Source of the DNA: an uncultured Gammaproteobacteria bacterium
Lineage (GTDB): Bacteria > Patescibacteriota > Patescibacteriia > Magasanikbacterales > GWA2-37-8
NCBI GenBank assembly: GCA_964596525.1
Contig: CAZQUL010000001.1
Coordinates: 1,015,723 to 1,079,722 of the forward strand
Direction of reading: 5' to 3'
Length of the DNA: 64,000 nt
Shown here: positions 1,173-8,747 of the stretch, one piece after another
How positions within the stretch are numbered: the first letter of the stretch is position 1
Layout of the letters: every line of letters begins with the position of its first letter
Notes under the pieces: model-generated
What the model was told of the DNA's origin: nothing
Seen by the model: the letters and a program-made list of their open reading frames with translations, nothing else
Databases searched by the model: none
Made by a program: the position numbers and the translations under genes

Positions 1173-2324
1173 CTACCGGTTGAAGCGGCTGTCGTCTTCG
1201 TCGCCCCAGTCAGCCCTGTTCTGGGTGTCGGGGTCATTCTTGGGGCGGTGGTTGCGCTGACCCTTCTCCTCGAACTGCTTGGGCGCGCGCGGCGGACGGC
1301 GGCTGTTGTCGGTCGGGCCCTGATCGCGCCGGTTGTCCCGGTCATCGCGGCGCCGCTCCCGGTTGTCGGGCTGCGGCTCGCGCTCGGGGCGATCCCGGCG
1401 GAAGTCGCGCCGATCGTCACGTGGCTGGCTCTGGTGCGAGGGTGGCTCGCGGCGCGGCTCGGGTGCGCTGACGTTGAGCTCCGGCGGATTGTCGAGGTAG
1501 TCCTGGAGACTCTTGAGAAGCTCGGCGAGCCCTTGGTAGAAGTCCTTCTGAGCTGCTTCGGCTTGGTATACCGCCTCCTCTCGGTAGCCGTCGATTTGCT
1601 TTCTGAACTGCTCCCGGCTGATGAAGCAGGTGTGGTCAACGAGCCGTTGGGTGAGAATCACCTCACCGGCGGCCATAACCGCGTTCAGGTTGTAGAACAC
1701 GATTTCGTATAGCGTTACGCCCGGCATCCCGCTCTCCGTGTTGCCTGCGAGCTCCCGCTTCCTTCCCTTGATGAGGGTGAGCTGGGTCTTGCCGTTCTCG
1801 TCGAGCGGTACGGTGTAGCGCTTGATACGTCCGTCCCACTGTCCGGGCTTGATCAGGTACTGCTGTTCGATCCGGCGGAAGTTGGGCAGGCAGAAGATCT
1901 GGGCCATGACCTCGCCCTCTTCGGTGCGGAAGGCCTGCGAGAGGCTCGACACCACCACGGGGAACTGCCCGTTGTGGGTGATATCGTTCGGGATCTTGAA
2001 GGTTGCGACGAAGTTGCCGTCACCGGAACCGCTCTGGAGCGGGTCCTTGAACTGGAACTCCTGGTAGTCGCGCGTGGCAAAGGCCAGGCCTCCTCCTACG
2101 CCCCTGATCTTCTTCTCGGTCTCGCGGTCTTCGAGGCCTGCGATCGCGTGGATCACGGCCTGCTGCAACAGGGGCTTGGGCGCCTTCTTCTGCTCCGTGC
2201 TCTGCGACTGATTCTTCTCGTTCGTCATGGCGATCTCCTTGTATCTCTCGGTGTCCGTGGGGTAGAGCGGCTGCGCTGAAACGTTCAGTGCGGCCAGGTG
2301 AAATCGTCCGTCGGATTGTCCCAA
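1173..2324 (-). CDS. hypothetical protein with Arg/Asp/Glu-rich low-complexity C-terminal tail (true start possibly the internal Met at MTNEKNQ)
   Basis: 383-aa ORF in a sharply GC-rich (about 65%) segment flanked by approximately 52% GC genes; C-terminal approximately 90 aa are RD/RE repeats (RDDRRDFRRDRPEREPQPDNRERRRDDRDNRRDQ); the opposite-strand ORFs here are GC-rich shadows. Confidence 0.5.
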   Translation of the reverse strand: MGQSDGRFHLAALNVSAQPLYPTDTERYKEIAMTNEKNQSQSTEQKKAPKPLLQQAVIHAIAGLEDRETEKKIRGVGGGLAFATRDYQEFQFKDPLQSGSGDGNFVATFKIPNDITHNGQFPVVVSSLSQAFRTEEGEVMAQIFCLPNFRRIEQQYLIKPGQWDGRIKRYTVPLDENGKTQLTLIKGRKRELAGNTESGMPGVTLYEIVFYNLNAVMAAGEVILTQRLVDHTCFISREQFRKQIDGYREEAVYQAEAAQKDFYQGLAELLKSLQDYLDNPPELNVSAPEPRREPPSHQSQPRDDRRDFRRDRPEREPQPDNRERRRDDRDNRRDQGPTDNSRRPPRAPKQFEEKGQRNHRPKNDPDTQNRADWGDEDDSRFNR

Positions 2325-2563: not shown

Positions 2564-3136
2564 ATGAACGACCGTACCGCGTTTGCCGACGAACACGCCC
2601 TGGTAGAACGGGCCAAAAACGATGAACAGGCTTTTCGCGAGCTCTATGAACGGTACTTCAATGAAGTATACGGTTTTATAGCTAAGCGCGTGGGCGGCCG
2701 TGAAACCGCGGAAGACCTTACTTCGGAGCTGTTCATCAAAATTTTTACTAAACTGTCGAGTTACGAACCGCGGGATTGTTCATTTCGGGCGTGGCTCTAT
2801 CGCGTGGCGCATAACATTCTCATCGATCATTACCGCAAAGCCAGCGTACGCCGCGAAACCACGGTTGAAGAATTCCCTGAAATCCGCGATGAAAACCAGG
2901 ATGTAAACGAAGAAATCATGCGCCGTCACGATGCGGCAACGGTTCGTTCTGTTCTCGATCAACTCCCCGAACGCTACGGCCAGGTGCTGGAACTCAAGTT
3001 TTTTGCCGAGATGGACCATGCTGAAATTGCAGGTGTAATGAATGTAACAGTAAATAACGTGGGAGTGATGGTATTCAGGGCACTGCGCGCCTTTGCCCGT
3101 TACTATGAACGCTATGTTTCTCAAGAAAAAAAGTAA
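2564..3136 (+). CDS. RNA polymerase sigma factor, ECF (sigma-24/sigma-70 group 4) family
   Basis: Region 2 (FRELYERYFNEVYGFIAKR ... WLYRVAHNILIDHYRK) and region 4 HTH (ERYGQVLELKFFAEMDHAEIAGVMNVTVNNVGVMVFRALRAF); 190 aa, typical ECF size. Confidence 0.85.
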   Translation: MNDRTAFADEHALVERAKNDEQAFRELYERYFNEVYGFIAKRVGGRETAEDLTSELFIKIFTKLSSYEPRDCSFRAWLYRVAHNILIDHYRKASVRRETTVEEFPEIRDENQDVNEEIMRRHDAATVRSVLDQLPERYGQVLELKFFAEMDHAEIAGVMNVTVNNVGVMVFRALRAFARYYERYVSQEKK

Positions 3137-6100
3137 ACAACTCGAAGATGCCATTCTCGGCCGTGGAGCGTGTAATGATCCGAAGATTGATGCGTTAGCT
3201 GAGGTAGGAGCGCGTATTAAACGCGCCGCTAACTCCGCTTCGTCCGAACCGCGGGCCGAATTCCAGAACGAACTTTTCGTTCGGATTTCTGCTCTGCGCC
3301 GCGAGGCCCCCGCATCTATGTCCAAGGCTTCCTTCCTCTCTCGCTTTTCAAGCGTCATCCTTTCGTGGCGTTTTGCTCCGGCGATCGCCGCTCTTCTTAT
3401 TGTTGCTATCGTTGCTTCTACCTTCACTTGGTGGCGCGGCGGTAATTCTAGTAACGGACTTTTCATCTCCGCGGCGTACGCGCAGGATAATTTTTCGGTC
3501 ACCTCGACGAACGGTGATAGTTTGGGTGTACCCACGTCTACCGCATTCGTCATCAGGAGTAAGCAAGCGCTCAGTCGCGCGGCCGTAGAACGCGCTGTAC
3601 AGCTCGTTCCAGCCACGCCTTTCGCGGTAGAAAAAATATCCGATCACGAGTTTAAAATCATTCCCGAAAAAGATTTGGCCGACCGGGCACTCTACCGCGT
3701 GCTCATCAATAGCCAGTACGTCAACGAGGCCGGTATCAGCGTGCAGCGTCCGTTCTCCTTTGCTTTCCAGACTAAACAATCGTTTTTCGTAAAAGGAACA
3801 CTTCCCGGCGATCGCTCGGTAAATGTGCCTGAAACTACCGGCATCGAGTTTACTTTTTCGCACGCCGGCGTGAAAAATCCCGAGCAGTTCATTACGTTTT
3901 CGCCGGAGATCAAAGGTACTTTTTCTGTCTGGGGATCAAAAGTGACCTTTGTGCCCACGTCGACTCTTAAGAAAAACACCTTGTATACCGTTACTATCAG
4001 CAAAAATTTGCCGGTCGAAGGAACGGTTGAGCGGTTATCGCAGGATTATACGTTCCAGTTTGAAACCGCGCTCGATGACCGGAGTGTCAACGCTCAGCGT
4101 TCGGTGCCGTACTTTGAGCGTACATTTGCCGAATTATCCGAAACCGGCGAGCAGGGAGTACAGGTATATCATTATTTTGAACAGATTCCCGGGGCCCCGT
4201 CTTCGGTTAAGCCGGCCTTGCCGCTCACGGTGTACCGCTTCGGCGATGTTAGCCAGTTCATTACCGCGCTTAAAAATTACGAAGAATCAAAACCGTGGTC
4301 ATATGTCGCGGCCAATGCATTCACGGTTCCTACCTCCACCCTTACGAACGTGTACTCCTTTGAAGGAACGCTTATTACCCGCCAGAATAATGATGTCATT
4401 TTGTTCCCCAAAAAATTGACCGCCGGTTTTTATCTGGTACAGGGCGAAAAAGCCGGTGTTAATCGGACGCTCTTTCTTGCGGTAACGCCGCTTGCCGCGC
4501 ATACCATCACGACTGCCAATCGCTCGCTCGTGTGGCTTAACAGCCTCGTTACGGCTAAACCGGTTACTGGAGCACGGATCCGTTTGGGTGCTACCGAGCT
4601 TGGTTCAACCAACGCTCAGGGTGTAGCTGAGTTTACACTTCCAACGTCTACTGTTGAAACCAACTCTTCTACGTTCCCGTATGCGGTAGTGGAAGCCGGT
4701 GGGCAGCAAACCGTGGTAAAACTTACCTCTGTCGACATGGCAGAGAGCACTCCCAATGCCACCTGGTGGAAATATCTTTACACTGACCGCGCGCTCTATC
4801 AACGTACTGATACGATGCGCACGTGGGGTTTTGTCCGGCCGCGCGCGAGCGCTTCAACCGCAGCGCCTTCGTCTATCGTCTTGAAAATCAACGGCGGCGT
4901 GGATTTTTATGGTAATTCGTATGCCGCGGTCGAGCAAACTGTTTCCGTGAATGCGCAAGGCTTCTTTTCTGCCGACCTGCCGCTTAAGGATATGCCGGTT
5001 GGTTTCTACTGGCTCGAAGGAGCGATTAACGATCAGGTCGTAATGTCGCGCAGTTTCCAGATACAACGCTACGTTAAGCCTGCCTATTCGCTTACCGTTA
5101 CTACCGACAAGCAAGCTCTTTTCGTTGATGAAACCCTCAAAGTCAATATTAAAGGCACGTTCTTTGATGGCACTCCGGCCGCTAACATTCCGCTCACATA
5201 TTCGTTCTTTGGGAATGTTGGTGATGTAAAACTTTCTCCGGCGGGCGAAGCTCACCTTGAACTCACCATGCCATACCAGAAGTTCGTTAATGGTGTTGAA
5301 AGAGGGTACTTTCCGTCGACGTATGCGCTTGAAATTGCATCCAAGGCCCCCGAAGAGAGCGATGTCTCGTTCTCTACCGATATTCGCGTTTTCGCGCAGC
5401 GTATTAACGTAAATACGTCCATTGAAGCTGCTAGCAGCAGCACAGCTCTTCTTAACGCGGAAGCATACAGAACTGATCTAACCGCGATCAACAATCGTAC
5501 CGAGCCGTTCTACGGTTCGTATAAAGGTCAGCCGGCGGGTAATTTCAGCGCCGAAGCTGTGATTACCGAAATTACGTATGTTCAGGTTCCGCGTCTCGAG
5601 TATGACCCTATCCTTAAACAGAACGTAACCCGTTACACGAGCCGCCAGGACACCAAGGAAGTGGCGCGCTTGCCGTTGCGCTTTAATGCCCAAGGCAAAG
5701 CCGAAGCTCGTTTTCCGGTAGTGCCGGGCAAAACGTATACGTCGCTTATTAAAGTTACTGACGAAAAGGGTTTTTCGGTGGAATCGAACGGATACTTTTA
5801 CGCATCGCGGCCGGGTTTAGATGATACTTCCTTTGAGGATCGTTATATTGGCCTGCAGTTTGCACCGGACCATAACGACACCACCTACCGTCGCGGCGAA
5901 ACCGTAAACGTATATGCACAGAATAAGGCCATGGCCGCCGCGTCCAACCGAGCGTACCTCTATTACCGATTGCAGAACGGTTTGCGTGATTACACCATCT
6001 CGAATACCTCCACCTACAACTTCGTGTTTTCGAATGAGCACGTACCGAATGTCTATATTAATGCGGTCGGGTTTGATGGACGTGAGTACTATCAGAGTTA

Positions 6101-8747
6101 CCATGAAATAAATGCGCAGCTCGATACGGCTGAAGAAGAATTAACGTTGACCGCTCGTACGCCGAGTACTACGTACGGCCCGGGCGACACTGTTCAGGTT
6201 GAAGTGGAAGTAAAAAACAAGAACGGCCAACCGGTTGCTTCTGGTATTAACCTCAACATTGTTGACGAAGCTTTTTATAAGCTAAGTGATGAGATTGCAG
6301 ATCCGCTTTCGGCGTTATACGTAAGCATCCCGTCCGGTTTGTATACCGTGGAATCGTCGCATCCGTACGCGGATTTGGCTAATATGAAAGCAGGTGGTGC
6401 CGAAGGCGGCGGGTGTTTCGTCGCGGGCACGCTCATCTTGATGGCTGATGGCACGCAAAAACCGATCGAGGAGATTAAAGTCGGTGATAAAATCAAGACG
6501 TTTGCCGGGCCGCTTGACCGTCGTTTGGTGACCGCTGAAGTGGAAAAAACATTCAGCCATACGGTTACGAAGTATCTTGTCATCAATGACCGTCTGTACG
6601 TAACGCCGGAACACCGCATGCTCGTCAACGGCGGTTGGCAGATGATCGGTGAAGCCGAAGTAGGGGATACGTTGGTTGATGCCTCGGGTAGTGCCATCGT
6701 TATCACCTCGATTGACCGCAAACAAGCCCTGACGCCGGTGTTTAACTTTACGGTGCGCGACTACCATACCTATATCGCCAATGGCGTGTATGTCCACAAC
6801 GACAAAGGCGCGCTGCGCAGTAACTTTACCGATACGGCCTTGTTCGTTTCGGGTGAAACTGATGCGAGCGGTAAAGCTGTGTTGTCCTTCAAACTCCCAG
6901 ACAACCTTACGGCCTGGCGCATTACCGCACAAGCGATTGATGGCGATGTGCGCGCTGGCGTAACGACTACTCCGGTGTATGTCACGCAATCGTTCTTCGT
7001 CTTGCCGAGCGTTGCGCGCGAGTACGTTCTCCTCGACCGTCCGTTCGTGAGCGTGCGCGGCTTCGGTGATGGATTGGGTGCGGCTTCTACGGTTGCGCTG
7101 AGCGTCGAACACACCGCTTCTTCTTACACTGCGACGGGAACCGTACCTGCTTTTACGCCGTTCTACGCGGCGCTGCCGGACATGAGTGTGGGTACCCATA
7201 AACTTATTTTCCGCGGTACGAGTACGCCCTTTGCCGATGCTGTTGAGCGTTTCGTATCAGTTGTCCCTTCGCGTGTACAAGAACGTGTTGTAGAAGAAAT
7301 CAACCCAACTAACGGGCAGCCGCTTAGATTTGAAACTGACGGCCCGGTAGAGATCGCTATTGTCAGCAAAGAACGTAGTCAGTACTACTACCGCCTCCTT
7401 AACCTTACCAACCCACATTCCGATCGTCTGGATGACCGTTTGGCAGCCGCGGTAGCCGCCGATCTTCAGAAACGACATTTTGGAACTGCAGCTGATTGGC
7501 AGGCGCCGGTCGACTGGTCGCTCTACGAGCAGTCCGGTCTTGCGCTCTTGCCCTACGATTCGGTTAATACCCGTTTGTCAGCTCTTGCAACACCGTTTGC
7601 AGAAGGTCGTTTCGGGATTACGAACCTTAAGGGGTATTTCTACAACCTCGTTAAAGATCCAGCTACGACCCGGGATGATTACTACGCTGCGCTTGCCGGT
7701 TTGGCGACGTTCAACGAGCCGGTTCTACTCCTCTTCCGCGAAGCTTTGACGACCGACGATTTCCTCACGCCGCGCATTAAGCTGCACCGCGCATGGGCAG
7801 CCGCTGCCCTGGGCGAAACTGAAGTGGCGCGCACTCTGGCTAGAGAATTTGTCGCTGATCACGTGACAAAGAGCGCTCTTGGTTTTGAACCGTCATATGA
7901 GACAACTGAAGAAGAGAAAGCTGAGGATATGGCCTTACTTGCCGTCGTTGCTATGGACCTGAAGCTGCCGGAAAGCGAAGACTTTATGGCGGCTGCGGAG
8001 CGTTTCGCCACCGATACGCGCATCAGTTTGGAACAGGCCCGTTATTTGGCGAGCGCGGTGGTGCAATCGAGTGCTAATGATGTGCATGTCAATCTTTCCG
8101 TCAACGGCCAGCCACGCTCGTTTGTCATCGGCAAAAATGACGGCGGTCCGGTACTTCTCACGTTGACGCGCGCCCAGGCTGAGTCCATAACGATGGGCAC
8201 AACAACCGGTGCCTTTGCCATGACCGCTTCGTATTCCCGTCCGACGTCGGCGCTCGCGAGCGTTTCCTCGCCACTGCTTAGTCTTAAGCGTGAGTATCGC
8301 GTCAATGGCGTTGTTACTACGTCGTGGAACGTAGGTGACTTAGTGGAGGTGCGATTATATCCTGAGGTCAAAACCGGCGTACCGACTACTTCGTACCAGA
8401 TAACAGATCTCTTGCCGAGCGGTCTCTATGCTGTTGGTCCGTTAGACCAGCCGATCATGTACAATGATTTCAGCGCCAAATCCATCTATAATCCGGGTGG
8501 CGATACATGTCCTAAGATCCTTCCGTATGAACGCGATGGGCAGCGTATTAAGTTCGTATACGGTCACTACGAGCCTTGGATAAAAGTTGTAGGTGAACCG
8601 GCGTGTCCGGATAAGAGAGTAATTTCCTACAGTGCCCGTGCGTTTGCTCCTGGTTCGTACGCCGCAGAACCGGCTCTCATGCAGGCGTTCGAATACTCCG
8701 ATCTCAAGACCTTCTCGGCGCCCGGTACGGTTACTATCGGGAAGTAA
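3093..8747 (+). CDS. giant single-pass membrane protein with anti-sigma-factor-like cytoplasmic N-terminus, extracellular alpha-2-macroglobulin-like (MG-domain, thioester-less TED-like) region and an embedded Hint/BIL domain
   Basis: Overlaps the ECF sigma gene by 44 nt. About 95-aa cytoplasmic N-terminus, then one TM helix (FAPAIAALLIVAIVASTFTWW), then about 1750 aa of beta-rich repeats. A2M-family landmarks: LTAWRITAQAIDGD, resembling the FPETWLW/TTW motif after the bait region, and an alpha-helical TED-like region with SLYEQSG at 7521-7538 where A2M proteins carry the CxEQ thioester. Hint domain at residues 1108-1236. Confidence 0.6.
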   Translation: MPVTMNAMFLKKKSKQLEDAILGRGACNDPKIDALAEVGARIKRAANSASSEPRAEFQNELFVRISALRREAPASMSKASFLSRFSSVILSWRFAPAIAALLIVAIVASTFTWWRGGNSSNGLFISAAYAQDNFSVTSTNGDSLGVPTSTAFVIRSKQALSRAAVERAVQLVPATPFAVEKISDHEFKIIPEKDLADRALYRVLINSQYVNEAGISVQRPFSFAFQTKQSFFVKGTLPGDRSVNVPETTGIEFTFSHAGVKNPEQFITFSPEIKGTFSVWGSKVTFVPTSTLKKNTLYTVTISKNLPVEGTVERLSQDYTFQFETALDDRSVNAQRSVPYFERTFAELSETGEQGVQVYHYFEQIPGAPSSVKPALPLTVYRFGDVSQFITALKNYEESKPWSYVAANAFTVPTSTLTNVYSFEGTLITRQNNDVILFPKKLTAGFYLVQGEKAGVNRTLFLAVTPLAAHTITTANRSLVWLNSLVTAKPVTGARIRLGATELGSTNAQGVAEFTLPTSTVETNSSTFPYAVVEAGGQQTVVKLTSVDMAESTPNATWWKYLYTDRALYQRTDTMRTWGFVRPRASASTAAPSSIVLKINGGVDFYGNSYAAVEQTVSVNAQGFFSADLPLKDMPVGFYWLEGAINDQVVMSRSFQIQRYVKPAYSLTVTTDKQALFVDETLKVNIKGTFFDGTPAANIPLTYSFFGNVGDVKLSPAGEAHLELTMPYQKFVNGVERGYFPSTYALEIASKAPEESDVSFSTDIRVFAQRINVNTSIEAASSSTALLNAEAYRTDLTAINNRTEPFYGSYKGQPAGNFSAEAVITEITYVQVPRLEYDPILKQNVTRYTSRQDTKEVARLPLRFNAQGKAEARFPVVPGKTYTSLIKVTDEKGFSVESNGYFYASRPGLDDTSFEDRYIGLQFAPDHNDTTYRRGETVNVYAQNKAMAAASNRAYLYYRLQNGLRDYTISNTSTYNFVFSNEHVPNVYINAVGFDGREYYQSYHEINAQLDTAEEELTLTARTPSTTYGPGDTVQVEVEVKNKNGQPVASGINLNIVDEAFYKLSDEIADPLSALYVSIPSGLYTVESSHPYADLANMKAGGAEGGGCFVAGTLILMADGTQKPIEEIKVGDKIKTFAGPLDRRLVTAEVEKTFSHTVTKYLVINDRLYVTPEHRMLVNGGWQMIGEAEVGDTLVDASGSAIVITSIDRKQALTPVFNFTVRDYHTYIANGVYVHNDKGALRSNFTDTALFVSGETDASGKAVLSFKLPDNLTAWRITAQAIDGDVRAGVTTTPVYVTQSFFVLPSVAREYVLLDRPFVSVRGFGDGLGAASTVALSVEHTASSYTATGTVPAFTPFYAALPDMSVGTHKLIFRGTSTPFADAVERFVSVVPSRVQERVVEEINPTNGQPLRFETDGPVEIAIVSKERSQYYYRLLNLTNPHSDRLDDRLAAAVAADLQKRHFGTAADWQAPVDWSLYEQSGLALLPYDSVNTRLSALATPFAEGRFGITNLKGYFYNLVKDPATTRDDYYAALAGLATFNEPVLLLFREALTTDDFLTPRIKLHRAWAAAALGETEVARTLAREFVADHVTKSALGFEPSYETTEEEKAEDMALLAVVAMDLKLPESEDFMAAAERFATDTRISLEQARYLASAVVQSSANDVHVNLSVNGQPRSFVIGKNDGGPVLLTLTRAQAESITMGTTTGAFAMTASYSRPTSALASVSSPLLSLKREYRVNGVVTTSWNVGDLVEVRLYPEVKTGVPTTSYQITDLLPSGLYAVGPLDQPIMYNDFSAKSIYNPGGDTCPKILPYERDGQRIKFVYGHYEPWIKVVGEPACPDKRVISYSARAFAPGSYAAEPALMQAFEYSDLKTFSAPGTVTIGK
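6414..6800 (+). other. Hint (Hedgehog/intein) domain, 129 aa, mini-intein/bacterial intein-like (BIL) type, in frame inside the giant protein
   Basis: N-terminal block GGG-CFVAGTLILMADGTQKPIEEIKVGDKI (Cys1, block A), TPEH (block B Thr/His), C-terminal block FNFTVRDYHTYIANGVYVHN ending in His-Asn; the residue after HN is Asp (no Cys/Ser/Thr +1 nucleophile); no homing endonuclease. Confidence 0.75.

What the first reader, a model, noticed from the sequence alone, without database searches (positions are those of the whole stretch)
6414..6800. Self-contained 129-aa Hint/bacterial-intein-like domain inserted at the bait-region position of the A2M-like protein
Hint blocks are directly visible: Cys1 in G-CFVAGTLILMADG, the TxxH block (TPEH), and the terminal ... 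YIANGVYVHN. The residue after the terminal Asn is Asp, not Cys/Ser/Thr, so canonical splicing is unlikely. This is the profile of BIL domains, which perform N- or C-terminal cleavage without ligation.

The domain sits about 15 residues upstream of the LTAWRIT motif. In A2M proteins that motif follows the protease bait region. The implication is an autoproteolytic module occupying the place where exogenous proteases normally cut, giving a built-in cleavage or cross-linking mechanism.
Basis: seen in the sequence. Interest (0 to 1): 0.75.

Follow-up and report, generated by a model that had tools for sequence, protein, structure and literature searches.

The report
Self-cleaving Hint domain inside bacterial macroglobulin
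A large bacterial relative of the protease trap alpha-2-macroglobulin carries a small intein-like self-cutting domain exactly where outside proteases normally cut to spring the trap, an arrangement found in at least 140 protein families from uncultured bacteria that I could not find described in print.

Summary
Window 6414-6800 encodes a complete 129-aa Hint domain with Cys1, a TPEH block and a terminal His-Asn. Asp follows it, so there is no +1 nucleophile. By sequence and by predicted fold it is a type-A bacterial intein-like (BIL / PT-HINT) domain.

It interrupts an 1880-aa membrane-anchored alpha-2-macroglobulin (A2M) homologue that lacks the thioester. Its C-terminal scissile bond lies 5 residues upstream of the conserved Arg-x-x-Phe "plug" (human A2M R732/F735). 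A chain break just upstream of this plug triggers A2M and C3. The Hint therefore occupies the bait/anaphylatoxin position.

The architecture recurs in at least 142 protein clusters (50% identity) and 28 species genomes, mostly Patescibacteria, in both thioester and thioester-less A2M classes. Gly-1, Cys1, the block-B His, His-Asn and Lys+2 are essentially invariant. Hint-less relatives lack exactly this segment.

My best reading, inferred and not shown, is a domesticated autoprocessing module that breaks the chain at the trigger point without an external protease. BIL-type re-ligation, possibly through Lys+2, is a serious rival.

No publication was found. I rate it a new variant of a known kind, interest about 0.7.

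The parts
2564..3136 (+). ECF-type sigma factor gene. Its end overlaps the start of the A2M gene. Context only, probably co-transcribed.
   Evidence: Pfam Sigma70_r2 1.4e-16 and Sigma70_r4_2 2.3e-13. A sigma homologue lies directly upstream of the A2M gene in L002, L003, L004, L006, L008 and L012.
3105..8747 (+). Gene for the 1880-aa A2M-superfamily protein (P0001). ATG at 3105, an alternative TTG at 3093, stop included.
   Evidence: ORF list. Pfam Big_5, bMG3, MG2, A2M_BRD, PT-HINT, A2M and bMG10. An identical protein is in the database. The family profile hits E. coli ECAM/YfhM at 8e-31, and also Salmonella A2M, TEP1, C5, CD109 and human A2M.
3372..3434 (+). Single transmembrane helix (aa 90-110), preceded by an 89-aa cytoplasmic N-terminus.
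   Evidence: Sequence FAPAIAALLIVAIVASTFTWW. The same topology occurs in most members of the thioester-less class.
5877..6284 (+). A2M bait-region domain (Pfam A2M_BRD), N-terminal to the insert.
   Evidence: PF07703, E 2.5e-09, above its cut-off. Coordinates.
6363..6413 (+). Residual Gly-rich bait linker PYADLANMKAGGAEGGG, the N-extein side, ending in Gly-1.
   Evidence: Aligns with the GGAE[GK]GG bait loop of Hint-less homologues. Gly-1 is present in 147/147 and Gly-2 in 141/147. AlphaFold pLDDT is below 50 here.
6414..6800 (+). 129-aa Hint domain, type-A BIL / PT-HINT.
6414..6416 (+). Cys1 (TGT), the predicted N-S acyl-shift nucleophile. It is the only Cys in the Hint and one of three in the ectodomain.
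   Evidence: Cys1 in 147/147 and Phe2 in 147/147. A single Cys per Hint in 146/147; Cys positions 23, 1104, 1802 and 1834.
6603..6614 (+). Block B, TPEH (TxxH).
   Evidence: Thr in 146/147, His in 147/147.
6735..6785 (+). Block F region, PVFNFTVRDYHTYIANG.
   Evidence: Aligns with VYNFKVDDFHTY of 2LWY. N181, Y187, H188, T189 and Y190 are nearly invariant in alignment A3.
6795..6800 (+). Penultimate His and terminal Asn (CAC AAC). The predicted Asn-cyclisation cleavage site is the Asn1232|Asp1233 bond.
   Evidence: His in 147/147 and Asn in 147/147. TIGR01443 intein_Cterm hit.
6801..6809 (+). Asp+1, Lys+2, Gly+3 (DKG), a Hint-associated C-flank motif.
   Evidence: +1 is D 72, Q 42, E 20, with Ser/Thr only 4. 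Lys+2 in 146/147, Gly+3 in 136/147. The motif is absent from Hint-less homologues and from non-A2M PT-HINT domains, where +2 is most often Cys.
6816..6827 (+). RSNF, the alpha'NT 'plug' Arg-x-x-Phe. It is equivalent to human A2M R732/F735 and to C3 RSEF.
   Evidence: R1238 and F1241 are invariant in A1 and R is present in 147/147. Profile-to-PDB register. The role of the plug is from PMC9352918.
6837..7013 (+). Pfam A2M domain, containing LPDNLTAWRIT at 6894-6926.
   Evidence: PF00207, E 4.1e-11. Aligns with LPDSLTTWEI of C5.
7410..7436 (+). Degenerate thioester site, NPHSDRLDD in place of YPYGCVEQT.
   Evidence: Alignment A1 against P0010. No CxEQ motif in P0001.
8750..9697 (+). Memo-like gene starting 3 nt after the A2M stop. 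A conserved neighbour of the whole A2M family, not specific to the Hint.
   Evidence: PF01875, E 2.5e-13. Located downstream in at least 14 loci of both classes and next to the Hint-less P0004 and P0006.

Best explanation
The segment is a catalytically competent type-A bacterial intein-like (PT-HINT) domain that has been domesticated inside the bait loop of a surface-anchored bacterial alpha-2-macroglobulin.

It sits between the Gly-rich linker and the alpha'NT plug (Arg1238-x-x-Phe1241). Topologically this is where C3, C4 and C5 carry the anaphylatoxin domain.

Proposed mechanism (inferred):
1. After export and folding, Cys1104 makes an N-S acyl shift at Gly1103-Cys1104.
2. Asn1232 cyclises and cuts the Asn1232|Asp1233 bond.
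3. That cut creates a new N-terminus only 5 residues before the plug Arg.

[quoted passage not shown] The Hint would therefore act as a built-in, protease-independent processing or trigger device. It could either mature the protein into a two-chain form or fire the trap. A protease cut in the residual linker upstream of the Hint would not free the plug, because the Hint would stay attached as a stopper.

What is shown: the identity of the domain, its exact position, its family-wide conservation and its presence/absence pattern. What is inferred: that it is active, which bonds it cuts, and the consequence for the A2M.
For: Domain identity:
- PF07591 above its gathering score.
- 2LWY is the best PDB sequence hit.
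- AlphaFold pLDDT 82-98 across the Hint.
- BIL2 and CthBIL are the top Foldseek hits; 2LWY has rmsd 1.8 A and target-normalised TM 0.84.

Position:
- The family profile register puts G1235 on human A2M 729, so R1238 = R732 and F1241 = F735.
- Harwood 2022 shows that a discontinuity in the bait is the trigger and that the alpha'NT with R732/F735 is the plug.
- The spacer from the terminal Asn to the plug Arg is 3-10 aa, mode 5, across 147 proteins.

Selection on the chemistry:
- Gly-1, Cys1, Phe2, the block-B His and His-Asn are each 147/147, in proteins that are only about 44% identical in the Hint.
- There is one Cys per Hint in 146/147.

The site is the least constrained loop of the host. 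Hint-less clades nested inside the Hint-bearing class show that loss is viable. Retention with intact catalytic residues therefore argues for a host function.

The same module, at the same site, occurs in both the thioester class (68) and the thioester-less class (79), so it is not simply a replacement for the thioester.

Type-A BILs give mainly cleavage products (PMC4031507). PT-HINT domains are interpreted as autoproteolytic release modules (PMC3482391).
Against: - There are no biochemical data.
- Constitutive self-cleavage would 'spend' a classical trap, and no regulatory input was identified.
- Type-A BILs can also splice. The spliced product ...GGAEGGG-DKGALR... would resemble the bait of Hint-less relatives such as P0007 (GGAEKGG-DGGGIRRDF).
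- The A2M-specific invariance of Gly-1 and Lys+2 is explained more naturally by a ligation step than by hydrolysis. The closest structural relative, BIL2, makes a Lys isopeptide (PMC8616854).
- Hint-less clades show that the module is dispensable.
Confidence: 0.48

Rival explanations
1. BIL-type protein splicing. The Hint removes itself and the two A2M halves are rejoined, leaving a continuous, ordinary Gly-rich bait. Rejoining could go through the alpha-amine of Asp+1 after Asn cyclisation (the type-A BIL aminolysis mechanism) or through the epsilon-amine of the invariant Lys+2 (an isopeptide, as in BIL2). The Hint would then be an intein-like passenger, or a maturation timer, rather than the trigger.
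For: - Type-A BILs splice without a +1 nucleophile (PMC4031507).
- BIL2, the top Foldseek hit, forms a Lys isopeptide at the N-terminal junction (PMC8616854).
- Lys+2 in 146/147 and Gly-1 in 147/147 are specific to the A2M-borne Hints. The Lys is lost when the Hint is lost (P0007 junction).
- The predicted spliced junction resembles the bait of Hint-less relatives.
- Both junctions are conserved, not just one.
Against: - Cleavage products dominate for type-A BILs.
- A purely selfish element with no homing endonuclease, sitting in a deletion-tolerant loop of a non-essential protein, should decay. Instead its catalytic residues are invariant in at least 142 clusters and it sits at one site in two deeply diverged A2M classes.
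- Splicing alone offers no advantage over the Hint-less state.
Confidence: 0.27
2. Hedgehog/BUBL-like acyl transfer to an outside nucleophile. The Gly1103-Cys1104 thioester is attacked by an amine or hydroxyl of another molecule, such as a trapped protease, a cell-wall component or a neighbouring cell surface. This would covalently attach the 1100-residue membrane-anchored N-fragment to it. In the thioester-less class this would supply the covalent chemistry that the degenerate TED no longer has.
For: - The G|CF junction is invariant and matches the Hedgehog Gly-Cys-Phe site (the Hedgehog motif is from my own knowledge).
- BIL2 conjugates ubl4 to other proteins (PMC8616854).
- The window protein lacks CxEQ.
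- Cys1 is a lone extracellular thiol.
Against: - The thioester class (68/147) carries the same Hint, so it is not a compensating replacement.
- This reading does not explain the invariant terminal Asn or Lys+2.
- No partner or acceptor was identified. The conserved neighbours (Memo-like, PGA_cap) are also present next to Hint-less genes.
Confidence: 0.1
3. A catalytically silent passenger. The Hint is only a folded spacer or stopper in the bait loop, or a recent degenerate intein remnant. Proteases cut the flanking linkers as in any A2M.
For: - The flanking linkers are predicted to be disordered (pLDDT below 50), and the Gly-rich N-linker is retained.
- Hint-less relatives are viable.
Against: - Every catalytic position is invariant in 147 diverged sequences. 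A silent domain would lose them.
- GC content equals that of the host gene (0.522 against 0.522), and the family is ancient and widespread. It is therefore not a recent remnant.
Confidence: 0.05

Closest known systems
Type-A bacterial intein-like (BIL) domains / Pfam PT-HINT PF07591 (e.g. Clostridium thermocellum BIL, PDB 2LWY; pretoxin Hint of polymorphic toxins)
   Same: - Same family by profile, by sequence to 2LWY and by fold.
- Cys1, TxxH and a terminal His-Asn, with no +1 Cys/Ser/Thr.
- About 130 aa, no endonuclease, found in secreted or surface proteins.
   Different: - The host and the site differ. It is embedded mid-chain in an A2M, with 648 residues of MG7/CUB/TED-like/MG8 following it. 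Pretoxin Hints precede a short C-terminal toxin (median tail 93 aa in the non-A2M hits).
- The flank signature is its own: Gly-1, [D/Q/E]+1, Lys+2, Gly+3.
- The A2M-borne Hints form one clade, 147 of 148 tips.
Tetrahymena BUBL BIL2 (PDB 6TMM/6Y75)
   Same: Top structural match. It is a BIL that uses its N-terminal thioester with a Lys nucleophile of the C-flank to make an isopeptide (PMC8616854). This parallels the invariant Lys+2 here.
   Different: BIL2 is eukaryotic, is flanked by ubiquitin-like domains and is about 25% identical. Nothing shows that Lys1234 is a nucleophile here.
Anaphylatoxin (ANA) domain and convertase site of complement C3/C4/C5
   Same: - A globular domain inserted between the linker and the alpha'NT at the same topological position.
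- Cleavage at its C-terminal boundary frees the alpha'NT (RSEFPESWLW in C3, RSNFTDTALF here).
   Different: - ANA is a helical domain removed by an external convertase 15 residues before the plug Arg.
- Here the inserted domain is itself the predicted cutting device, 5 residues before the plug Arg.
- The two inserts are not homologous.
Bacterial alpha-2-macroglobulins: type I (ECAM/YfhM, Salmonella A2M, with thioester) and type II (Pseudomonas MagD, without thioester)
   Same: The host is an A2M-superfamily protein. The family profile hits 5A42/4ZIQ at 8e-31. The window protein lacks the thioester, as type II does, and 68/147 relatives have CxEQ, as type I does (types from the PMC5764988 abstract).
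   Different: - No known bacterial A2M has a Hint in the bait.
- These proteins come from Patescibacteria-like genomes. They are anchored by an N-terminal TM helix rather than a lipobox, and sit next to ECF sigma and Memo-like genes rather than pbpC or mag genes.
Canonical (class 1) mini-inteins, e.g. Mtu RecA and Ssp DnaB mini-inteins
   Same: Same fold and the same catalytic blocks A, B, F and G.
   Different: - No +1 nucleophile (Asp).
- The insertion site is the host's most variable loop, not a conserved active-site motif of an essential protein.

Membership tests
Hint superfamily, type-A BIL / PT-HINT (PF07591) | Profile match above the curated threshold | tested here: met
   PF07591 scores 52.2 bits (domain alone) and 47 bits (whole protein) against a gathering score of 27.7.
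Hint superfamily, type-A BIL / PT-HINT (PF07591) | N-terminal Cys/Ser nucleophile (block A) and block B TxxH | tested here: met
   Cys1104 and TPEH at aa 1167-1170. Cys and His are each 147/147 in the family.
Hint superfamily, type-A BIL / PT-HINT (PF07591) | C-terminal His-Asn (what separates type A from type B BILs) | tested here: met
   VHN at aa 1230-1232. TIGR01443 scores 24.8 bits against a cut-off of 15.6. The definition is from PMC4031507.
Hint superfamily, type-A BIL / PT-HINT (PF07591) | No Cys/Ser/Thr at +1 | tested here: met
   Asp1233. In the family, +1 is D/Q/E in 134/147 and S/T in 4/147.
Hint superfamily, type-A BIL / PT-HINT (PF07591) | Hint (Hedgehog/intein) fold | tested here: met
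   AlphaFold pLDDT 82-98. Foldseek gives BIL2 at 8.6e-11 and 2LWY at 1.5e-10 with rmsd 1.8 A.
Hint superfamily, type-A BIL / PT-HINT (PF07591) | Autocatalytic cleavage or splicing activity | not testable with these tools
   Inferred only from invariant catalytic residues.
Polymorphic-toxin pretoxin Hint context | Hint lies immediately upstream of a short C-terminal toxin domain | tested here: not met
   648 residues of A2M body follow, and no toxin domain was found. Non-A2M relatives have a median tail of 93 aa.
Canonical class 1 intein | Cys/Ser/Thr at +1 for transesterification | tested here: not met
   Asp1233.
Canonical class 1 intein | Insertion in a conserved functional motif of the host; frequently a homing endonuclease | tested here: not met
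   The site is the Gly-rich bait loop, which varies in length among homologues. At 129 aa there is no room for an endonuclease, and Pfam finds no endonuclease core.
Alpha-2-macroglobulin / thioester-protein superfamily (host protein) | MG-domain body with A2M_BRD and A2M domains; homology to solved A2Ms | tested here: met
   Pfam. The family profile against the PDB hits ECAM at 8e-31, and also Sa-A2M, TEP1, C5, CD109 and human A2M.
Alpha-2-macroglobulin / thioester-protein superfamily (host protein) | alpha'NT plug Arg-x-x-Phe after the bait region | tested here: met
   R1238 and F1241 are invariant and in register with human A2M R732/F735.
Alpha-2-macroglobulin / thioester-protein superfamily (host protein) | Internal CxEQ thioester | tested here: not met
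   The window protein has NPHSDRLDD at that site. The motif is met in 68/147 Hint-bearing relatives. The window protein therefore resembles type II, thioester-less bacterial A2Ms.
Alpha-2-macroglobulin / thioester-protein superfamily (host protein) | Protease trapping / conformational change on bait cleavage | not testable with these tools
Hedgehog/Hog autoprocessing domain | Hint followed by a sterol-recognition region at the protein C-terminus, with no terminal Asn cleavage | tested here: not met
   A terminal His-Asn is present and the chain continues for 648 aa. Hedgehog structures rank below BILs and inteins (ranks 24 and 27).

The most novel reading that the evidence does not exclude
A protease-independent, self-firing A2M/complement-like protein. 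The Hint would act as a built-in 'convertase' whose Asn cyclisation frees the alpha'NT plug and triggers the conformational change.

In the thioester-bearing class this would expose the CxEQ thioester and covalently deposit the protein on whatever is nearby, for example the host-cell surface of episymbiotic Patescibacteria. That would be an autonomous bacterial analogue of C3 tick-over and opsonisation.

In the thioester-less class, fused to an anti-sigma-like membrane anchor next to an ECF sigma gene, the same event could be read out as a signal.

The invariant Lys+2 might additionally form an intramolecular Gly-Lys isopeptide, a splicing chemistry so far seen only in ciliate BUBL proteins.
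Probability: 0.15. Interest if true: 0.9.

Novelty: new variant of a known kind. Interest (0 to 1): 0.72.

Why it matters
- **A2M and complement.** These proteins are defined by activation through an external protease cut. A natural family carrying its own cutting device exactly at the trigger point (5 residues from the plug Arg) is a ready-made test of the plug-in-channel trigger model. It would also show that the A2M scaffold can run without a protease input.
- **Intein/Hint field.** This would give type-A BIL domains, whose biological role has been unclear since 2003, a concrete host function. It also provides a large and diverse set of about 129-aa domains with a fixed flank signature (GG|C...HN|[DQE]KG), which may be useful as self-cleaving or ligating tools.
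- **Patescibacteria biology.** The family is widespread in Patescibacteria, whose surface biology is almost unknown.

Tried and rejected
- **Canonical intein: rejected.** Asp is at +1, there is no endonuclease, and the site is a variable loop.
- **Recent mobile insertion: no support.** GC is 0.522, equal to the rest of the gene. There is only one Hint and one A2M in the window. GC3 is somewhat high (0.636 against 0.55±0.036) but within the gene's range.
- **Antisense ORF 6315-7199 (294 aa).** No Pfam hit, so treated as spurious.
- **Hint as a replacement for the lost thioester: rejected as a general explanation.** 68/147 Hint-bearing proteins keep CxEQ.
- **Link between the Hint and the Memo-like neighbour: rejected.** Hint-less P0004 and P0006 have the same neighbour.
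- **Vertical versus lateral history of the Hint: inconclusive.**
  - The flanks split the two A2M classes cleanly, while the 129-column Hint tree interleaves them.
  - The within-class correlation between Hint and flank identity is about 0.05, but the dynamic range is small.
- **Anti-sigma domain in the N-terminus.** No Pfam hit in 8 members.
- **Dead ends.**
  - P0001 is not on record in the contig index.
  - The afdb50 fold library was unavailable.
  - Word-indexed protein searches found few relatives, so the ratio of Hint-bearing to Hint-less family members could not be measured.
  - The source organism of the window could not be named.
- **Literature.** Five searches found no paper linking Hint/BIL/intein domains to bacterial A2Ms, and PMC3482391 (found) has no mention of macroglobulin. 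Subscription-only literature was not covered.

Full report
**1. Observation**

It starts CFVAGTLILMADG, contains TPEH, and ends YIANGVYVHN. The next residues are DKG. It lies in frame in a single ORF, 3093(TTG)/3105(ATG)-8747, which encodes an 1880-aa protein. An identical protein (P0001) is in the public collection, on a 1.34-Mb contig.

Profile searches leave no doubt that this is a Hint domain:
- Pfam PT-HINT PF07591 scores E 9.6e-14, 52 bits against a cut-off of 27.7. Vint, Hint_2 and Hom_end_hint are also above threshold.
- NCBIfam intein_Cterm is above its cut-off.
- The best solved-structure sequence match is 2LWY, 'bacterial intein-like domain', E 1.4e-11 over all 129 residues.
- An AlphaFold model built with 50 homologues gives pLDDT 82-98 (10-residue block means) across the Hint and below 50 in most of both flanks.
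- Foldseek against the PDB ranks BIL domains first: Tetrahymena BIL2 6TMM/6Y75, then C. thermocellum BIL 2LWY (rmsd 1.8 A, target-normalised TM 0.84, 35% identity). Mini-inteins come next, then Hedgehog.

One detail of the finding is inaccurate. LTAWRIT starts 36 residues after the terminal Asn, not about 15.

**2. The host protein and the exact position**

The host has Big_5, bMG3, MG2, A2M_BRD (aa 925-1060), the Hint (1104-1232), A2M (1245-1303) and bMG10. A profile of nine homologues hits E. coli ECAM/YfhM at 8e-31. It also hits Salmonella A2M, mosquito TEP1, C5, CD109 and human A2M. The host is therefore a genuine A2M-superfamily protein.

It has an 89-aa cytoplasmic N-terminus and one TM helix. 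It lacks the thioester, with NPHSDRLDD where relatives have YPYGCVEQT.

The register of the profile-to-PDB alignments fixes the position:
- A1 profile positions 1058-1140 align with human A2M 729-812.
- P0001 G1235 is profile position 1058.
- An independent profile of the C-flank aligns positions 9-101 with human A2M 731-823.

It follows that R1238 = R732 and F1241 = F735. Harwood et al. 2022 (PMC9352918) identify these two residues as the conserved alpha'NT 'plug'. The plug threads the MG2-MG3-LNK channel directly after the bait region in A2M, or after the anaphylatoxin domain in C3. They also show that introducing a chain discontinuity in the bait is what triggers the conformational change.

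The C3 alpha chain aligns the same way (RSEFPESWLW against RSNFTDTALF).

The Hint therefore occupies the bait/ANA position. Its C-terminal scissile bond (Asn1232|Asp1233) is 5 residues upstream of the plug Arg. Across 147 relatives this spacer is 3-10 residues, with a mode of 5.

**3. Family-wide picture**

- **Presence/absence.** A full-length alignment shows that P0001, P0002 (Ca. Falkowbacteria, 31% identical) and P0010 carry the Hint at the same point. P0003-P0009 lack exactly this segment...GGAEGGG|[C...HN]|DKG..R..F against ...GGAE[GK]GG-GGGGR..F.
- **Protein clusters.** A profile of Hint plus flanks was searched against 1.84 billion cluster representatives. It found 806 proteins at E≤1e-30. 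Of the best 150, 142 match the whole BRD-Hint-A2M profile in one stretch.
- **Genomes.** A scan of one genome per species found about 30 loci with the full arrangement. In 28 of them the Hint lies in an uninterrupted 1,580-1,940-aa ORF. These come from Parcubacteria, Peregrinibacteria/Peribacteria, Saccharibacteria, Daviesbacteria and Kerfeldbacteria. A few MAGs are labelled Limnocylindrales, Limisphaerales or Gammaproteobacteria.
- **Two host classes.** Class one has 68 proteins with CxEQ, about 1700 aa and a signal anchor. Class two has 79 proteins without CxEQ, about 1830 aa and a cytoplasmic N-terminus plus TM helix; the window protein belongs here.

Conservation over 147 proteins:

| Position | Count |
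|---|---|
| Gly-1 | 147/147 |
| Cys1 | 147/147 |
| Phe2 | 147/147 |
| Block B Thr | 146/147 |
| Block B His | 147/147 |
| Penultimate His | 147/147 |
| Terminal Asn | 147/147 |
| +1 | D 72, Q 42, E 20; Ser/Thr only 4 |
| Lys+2 | 146/147 |
| Gly+3 | 136/147 |

Other family-wide features:
- The Hint is 129 aa in 128/147 and has a single Cys in 146/147.
- In non-A2M PT-HINT domains, -1 and +1 are variable and +2 is most often Cys. In Hint-less A2Ms the DKG motif is absent. The flank signature therefore belongs to this Hint-in-A2M module.
- A2M-borne Hints form one clade, 147 of 148 tips, in a neighbour-joining tree with 97 other Hint domains.
- In a tree of the A2M body, two Hint-less clades (P0004/6/7/9 and P0003/5) are nested inside the Hint-bearing thioester-less class. 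This implies at least two losses. The P0007 junction GGAEKGG|DGGGIRRDF looks like a precise deletion after which Lys+2 decayed.
- Whether the two classes share the Hint by descent or by transfer could not be resolved.

**4. Mechanism**

What is established:
- It is a type-A BIL, as defined in PMC4031507: C-terminal His-Asn, no +1 nucleophile, able to splice by aminolysis although cleavage products dominate.
- It sits at the A2M trigger point, and all its catalytic positions are under strong purifying selection.

The site is the least constrained loop of a non-essential surface protein, and Hint loss is demonstrably viable. A selfish or silent element there would be expected to decay. Its invariance argues that the host uses the chemistry.

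My preferred reading (confidence about 0.5) is chain-breaking autoprocessing. Cys1104 forms the thioester at Gly1103. Asn1232 cyclises and cuts the chain. The new N-terminus, DKGALR..., frees the plug. That either matures the protein to a two-chain form (C3/C4 are furin-processed and TEP1 exists as a cut form; this is from my own knowledge) or fires the conformational change without a protease.

A protease cut in the residual 17-aa linker upstream would leave the Hint on the alpha'NT as a stopper. In the same way, cutting N-terminal to ANA does not activate C3. The Hint's own C-terminal cleavage would therefore be the gate.

The main rival (about 0.27) is re-ligation after excision, through the Asp+1 alpha-amine or the invariant Lys+2. 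The closest structural relative, BIL2, makes exactly such a Lys isopeptide (PMC8616854). This reading best explains the Gly-1/Lys+2 signature.

Transfer of the N-fragment to an external nucleophile (about 0.1) and a silent stopper (about 0.05) are less likely.

None of these can be decided without biochemistry.

**5. Comparison with known systems, and novelty**

The domain is a member of the type-A BIL / PT-HINT family. Every sequence and fold criterion is met; activity is untested.
- It is not a canonical intein: it has no +1 nucleophile and sits in a variable site.
- It is not in the polymorphic-toxin context: no toxin follows it.
- It is not Hedgehog-like.

The host is an A2M-superfamily protein of the thioester-less kind.

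The combination is new as far as I could find. Five full-text searches found no paper linking Hint/BIL/intein domains with bacterial A2Ms. The polymorphic-toxin survey that defined PT-HINT never mentions macroglobulin. Database annotations call these proteins 'hypothetical' or 'YfaS/alpha-2-macroglobulin family'. Subscription literature was not searchable, so prior description cannot be excluded.

I class it as a new variant of a known kind: a known autoprocessing domain recruited to the activation site of a known protease-trap scaffold.

**6. Verdict**

The feature is not a one-off. It defines a large, mostly Patescibacterial protein family with a precise and mechanistically suggestive geometry. 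Interest 0.72.

Noticed in passing
window 2564-3136 (+) and 3105-3434 (+): An ECF sigma factor gene overlaps the start of the A2M gene. The A2M protein begins with an 89-aa cytoplasmic segment plus one TM helix, an anti-sigma-like topology. A sigma gene lies directly upstream in six related loci, and the Hint-less homologue P0005 carries a zf-HC2 anti-sigma domain. The A2M ectodomain may be the sensor of an anti-sigma factor. The N-terminus itself has no Pfam hit.
   Followed up: partly
window 8750-9697 (+); L080 6983-8800; L082 69-1115 and 6289-7155: A Memo-like (PF01875) gene with an N-terminal TM helix starts 3 nt after the A2M stop. It is conserved downstream of the A2M gene in at least 14 loci of both classes. 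It also occurs next to Hint-less A2Ms, often with a PGA_cap (CapA-like) domain. This A2M-Memo-PGA_cap gene cluster is undescribed as far as I could see.
   Followed up: partly
proteins P0138, P0139, P0151, P0158, P0160: The nearest non-A2M relatives of this Hint are proteins made of 3-10 tandem Hint domains joined head to tail by only 'K-G-(G)' (...VHN-KGG-CF...). These are poly-Hint proteins of unknown purpose.
   Followed up: no
window 1173-2324 (-): A 383-aa ORF with no Pfam hit. Its C-terminal tail, rich in Arg, Asp, Glu and Pro (RDDRRDFRRDRPEREPQPDNRERRRDDRDNRRD...), accounts for the local GC peak of 0.72 and the strong AT skew at 1201-1500.
   Followed up: partly
alignment A1 columns ~1340-1500 (P0004, P0006, P0007, P0009): Hint-less relatives have a short, conserved, almost pure-glycine 'bait' (GGAE[GK]GG-GGGGR). 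That is an odd substrate for a broad-spectrum protease trap. It might point to a specific trigger such as glycyl-glycine endopeptidases.
   Followed up: no
window 6414-6800: The third-codon-position GC of the Hint segment (0.636) is at the upper extreme of 387-nt windows in the rest of the gene (0.55±0.036, maximum 0.636). Overall GC is identical (0.522).
   Followed up: partly
L027 (Ca. Gracilibacteria MAG), match 8001-8510: The Hint-A2M reading frame appears broken under translation table 11. This is probably because Gracilibacteria read UGA as Gly (code 25) rather than because the gene is a pseudogene (the genetic code is from my own knowledge).
   Followed up: no
P0018 (481 aa, on a 311-kb contig): A short ORF containing only the end of the BRD, a complete Hint and the start of the A2M domain. 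It may be a gene fragment, a pseudogene or a frameshifted assembly of a Hint-A2M.
   Followed up: no
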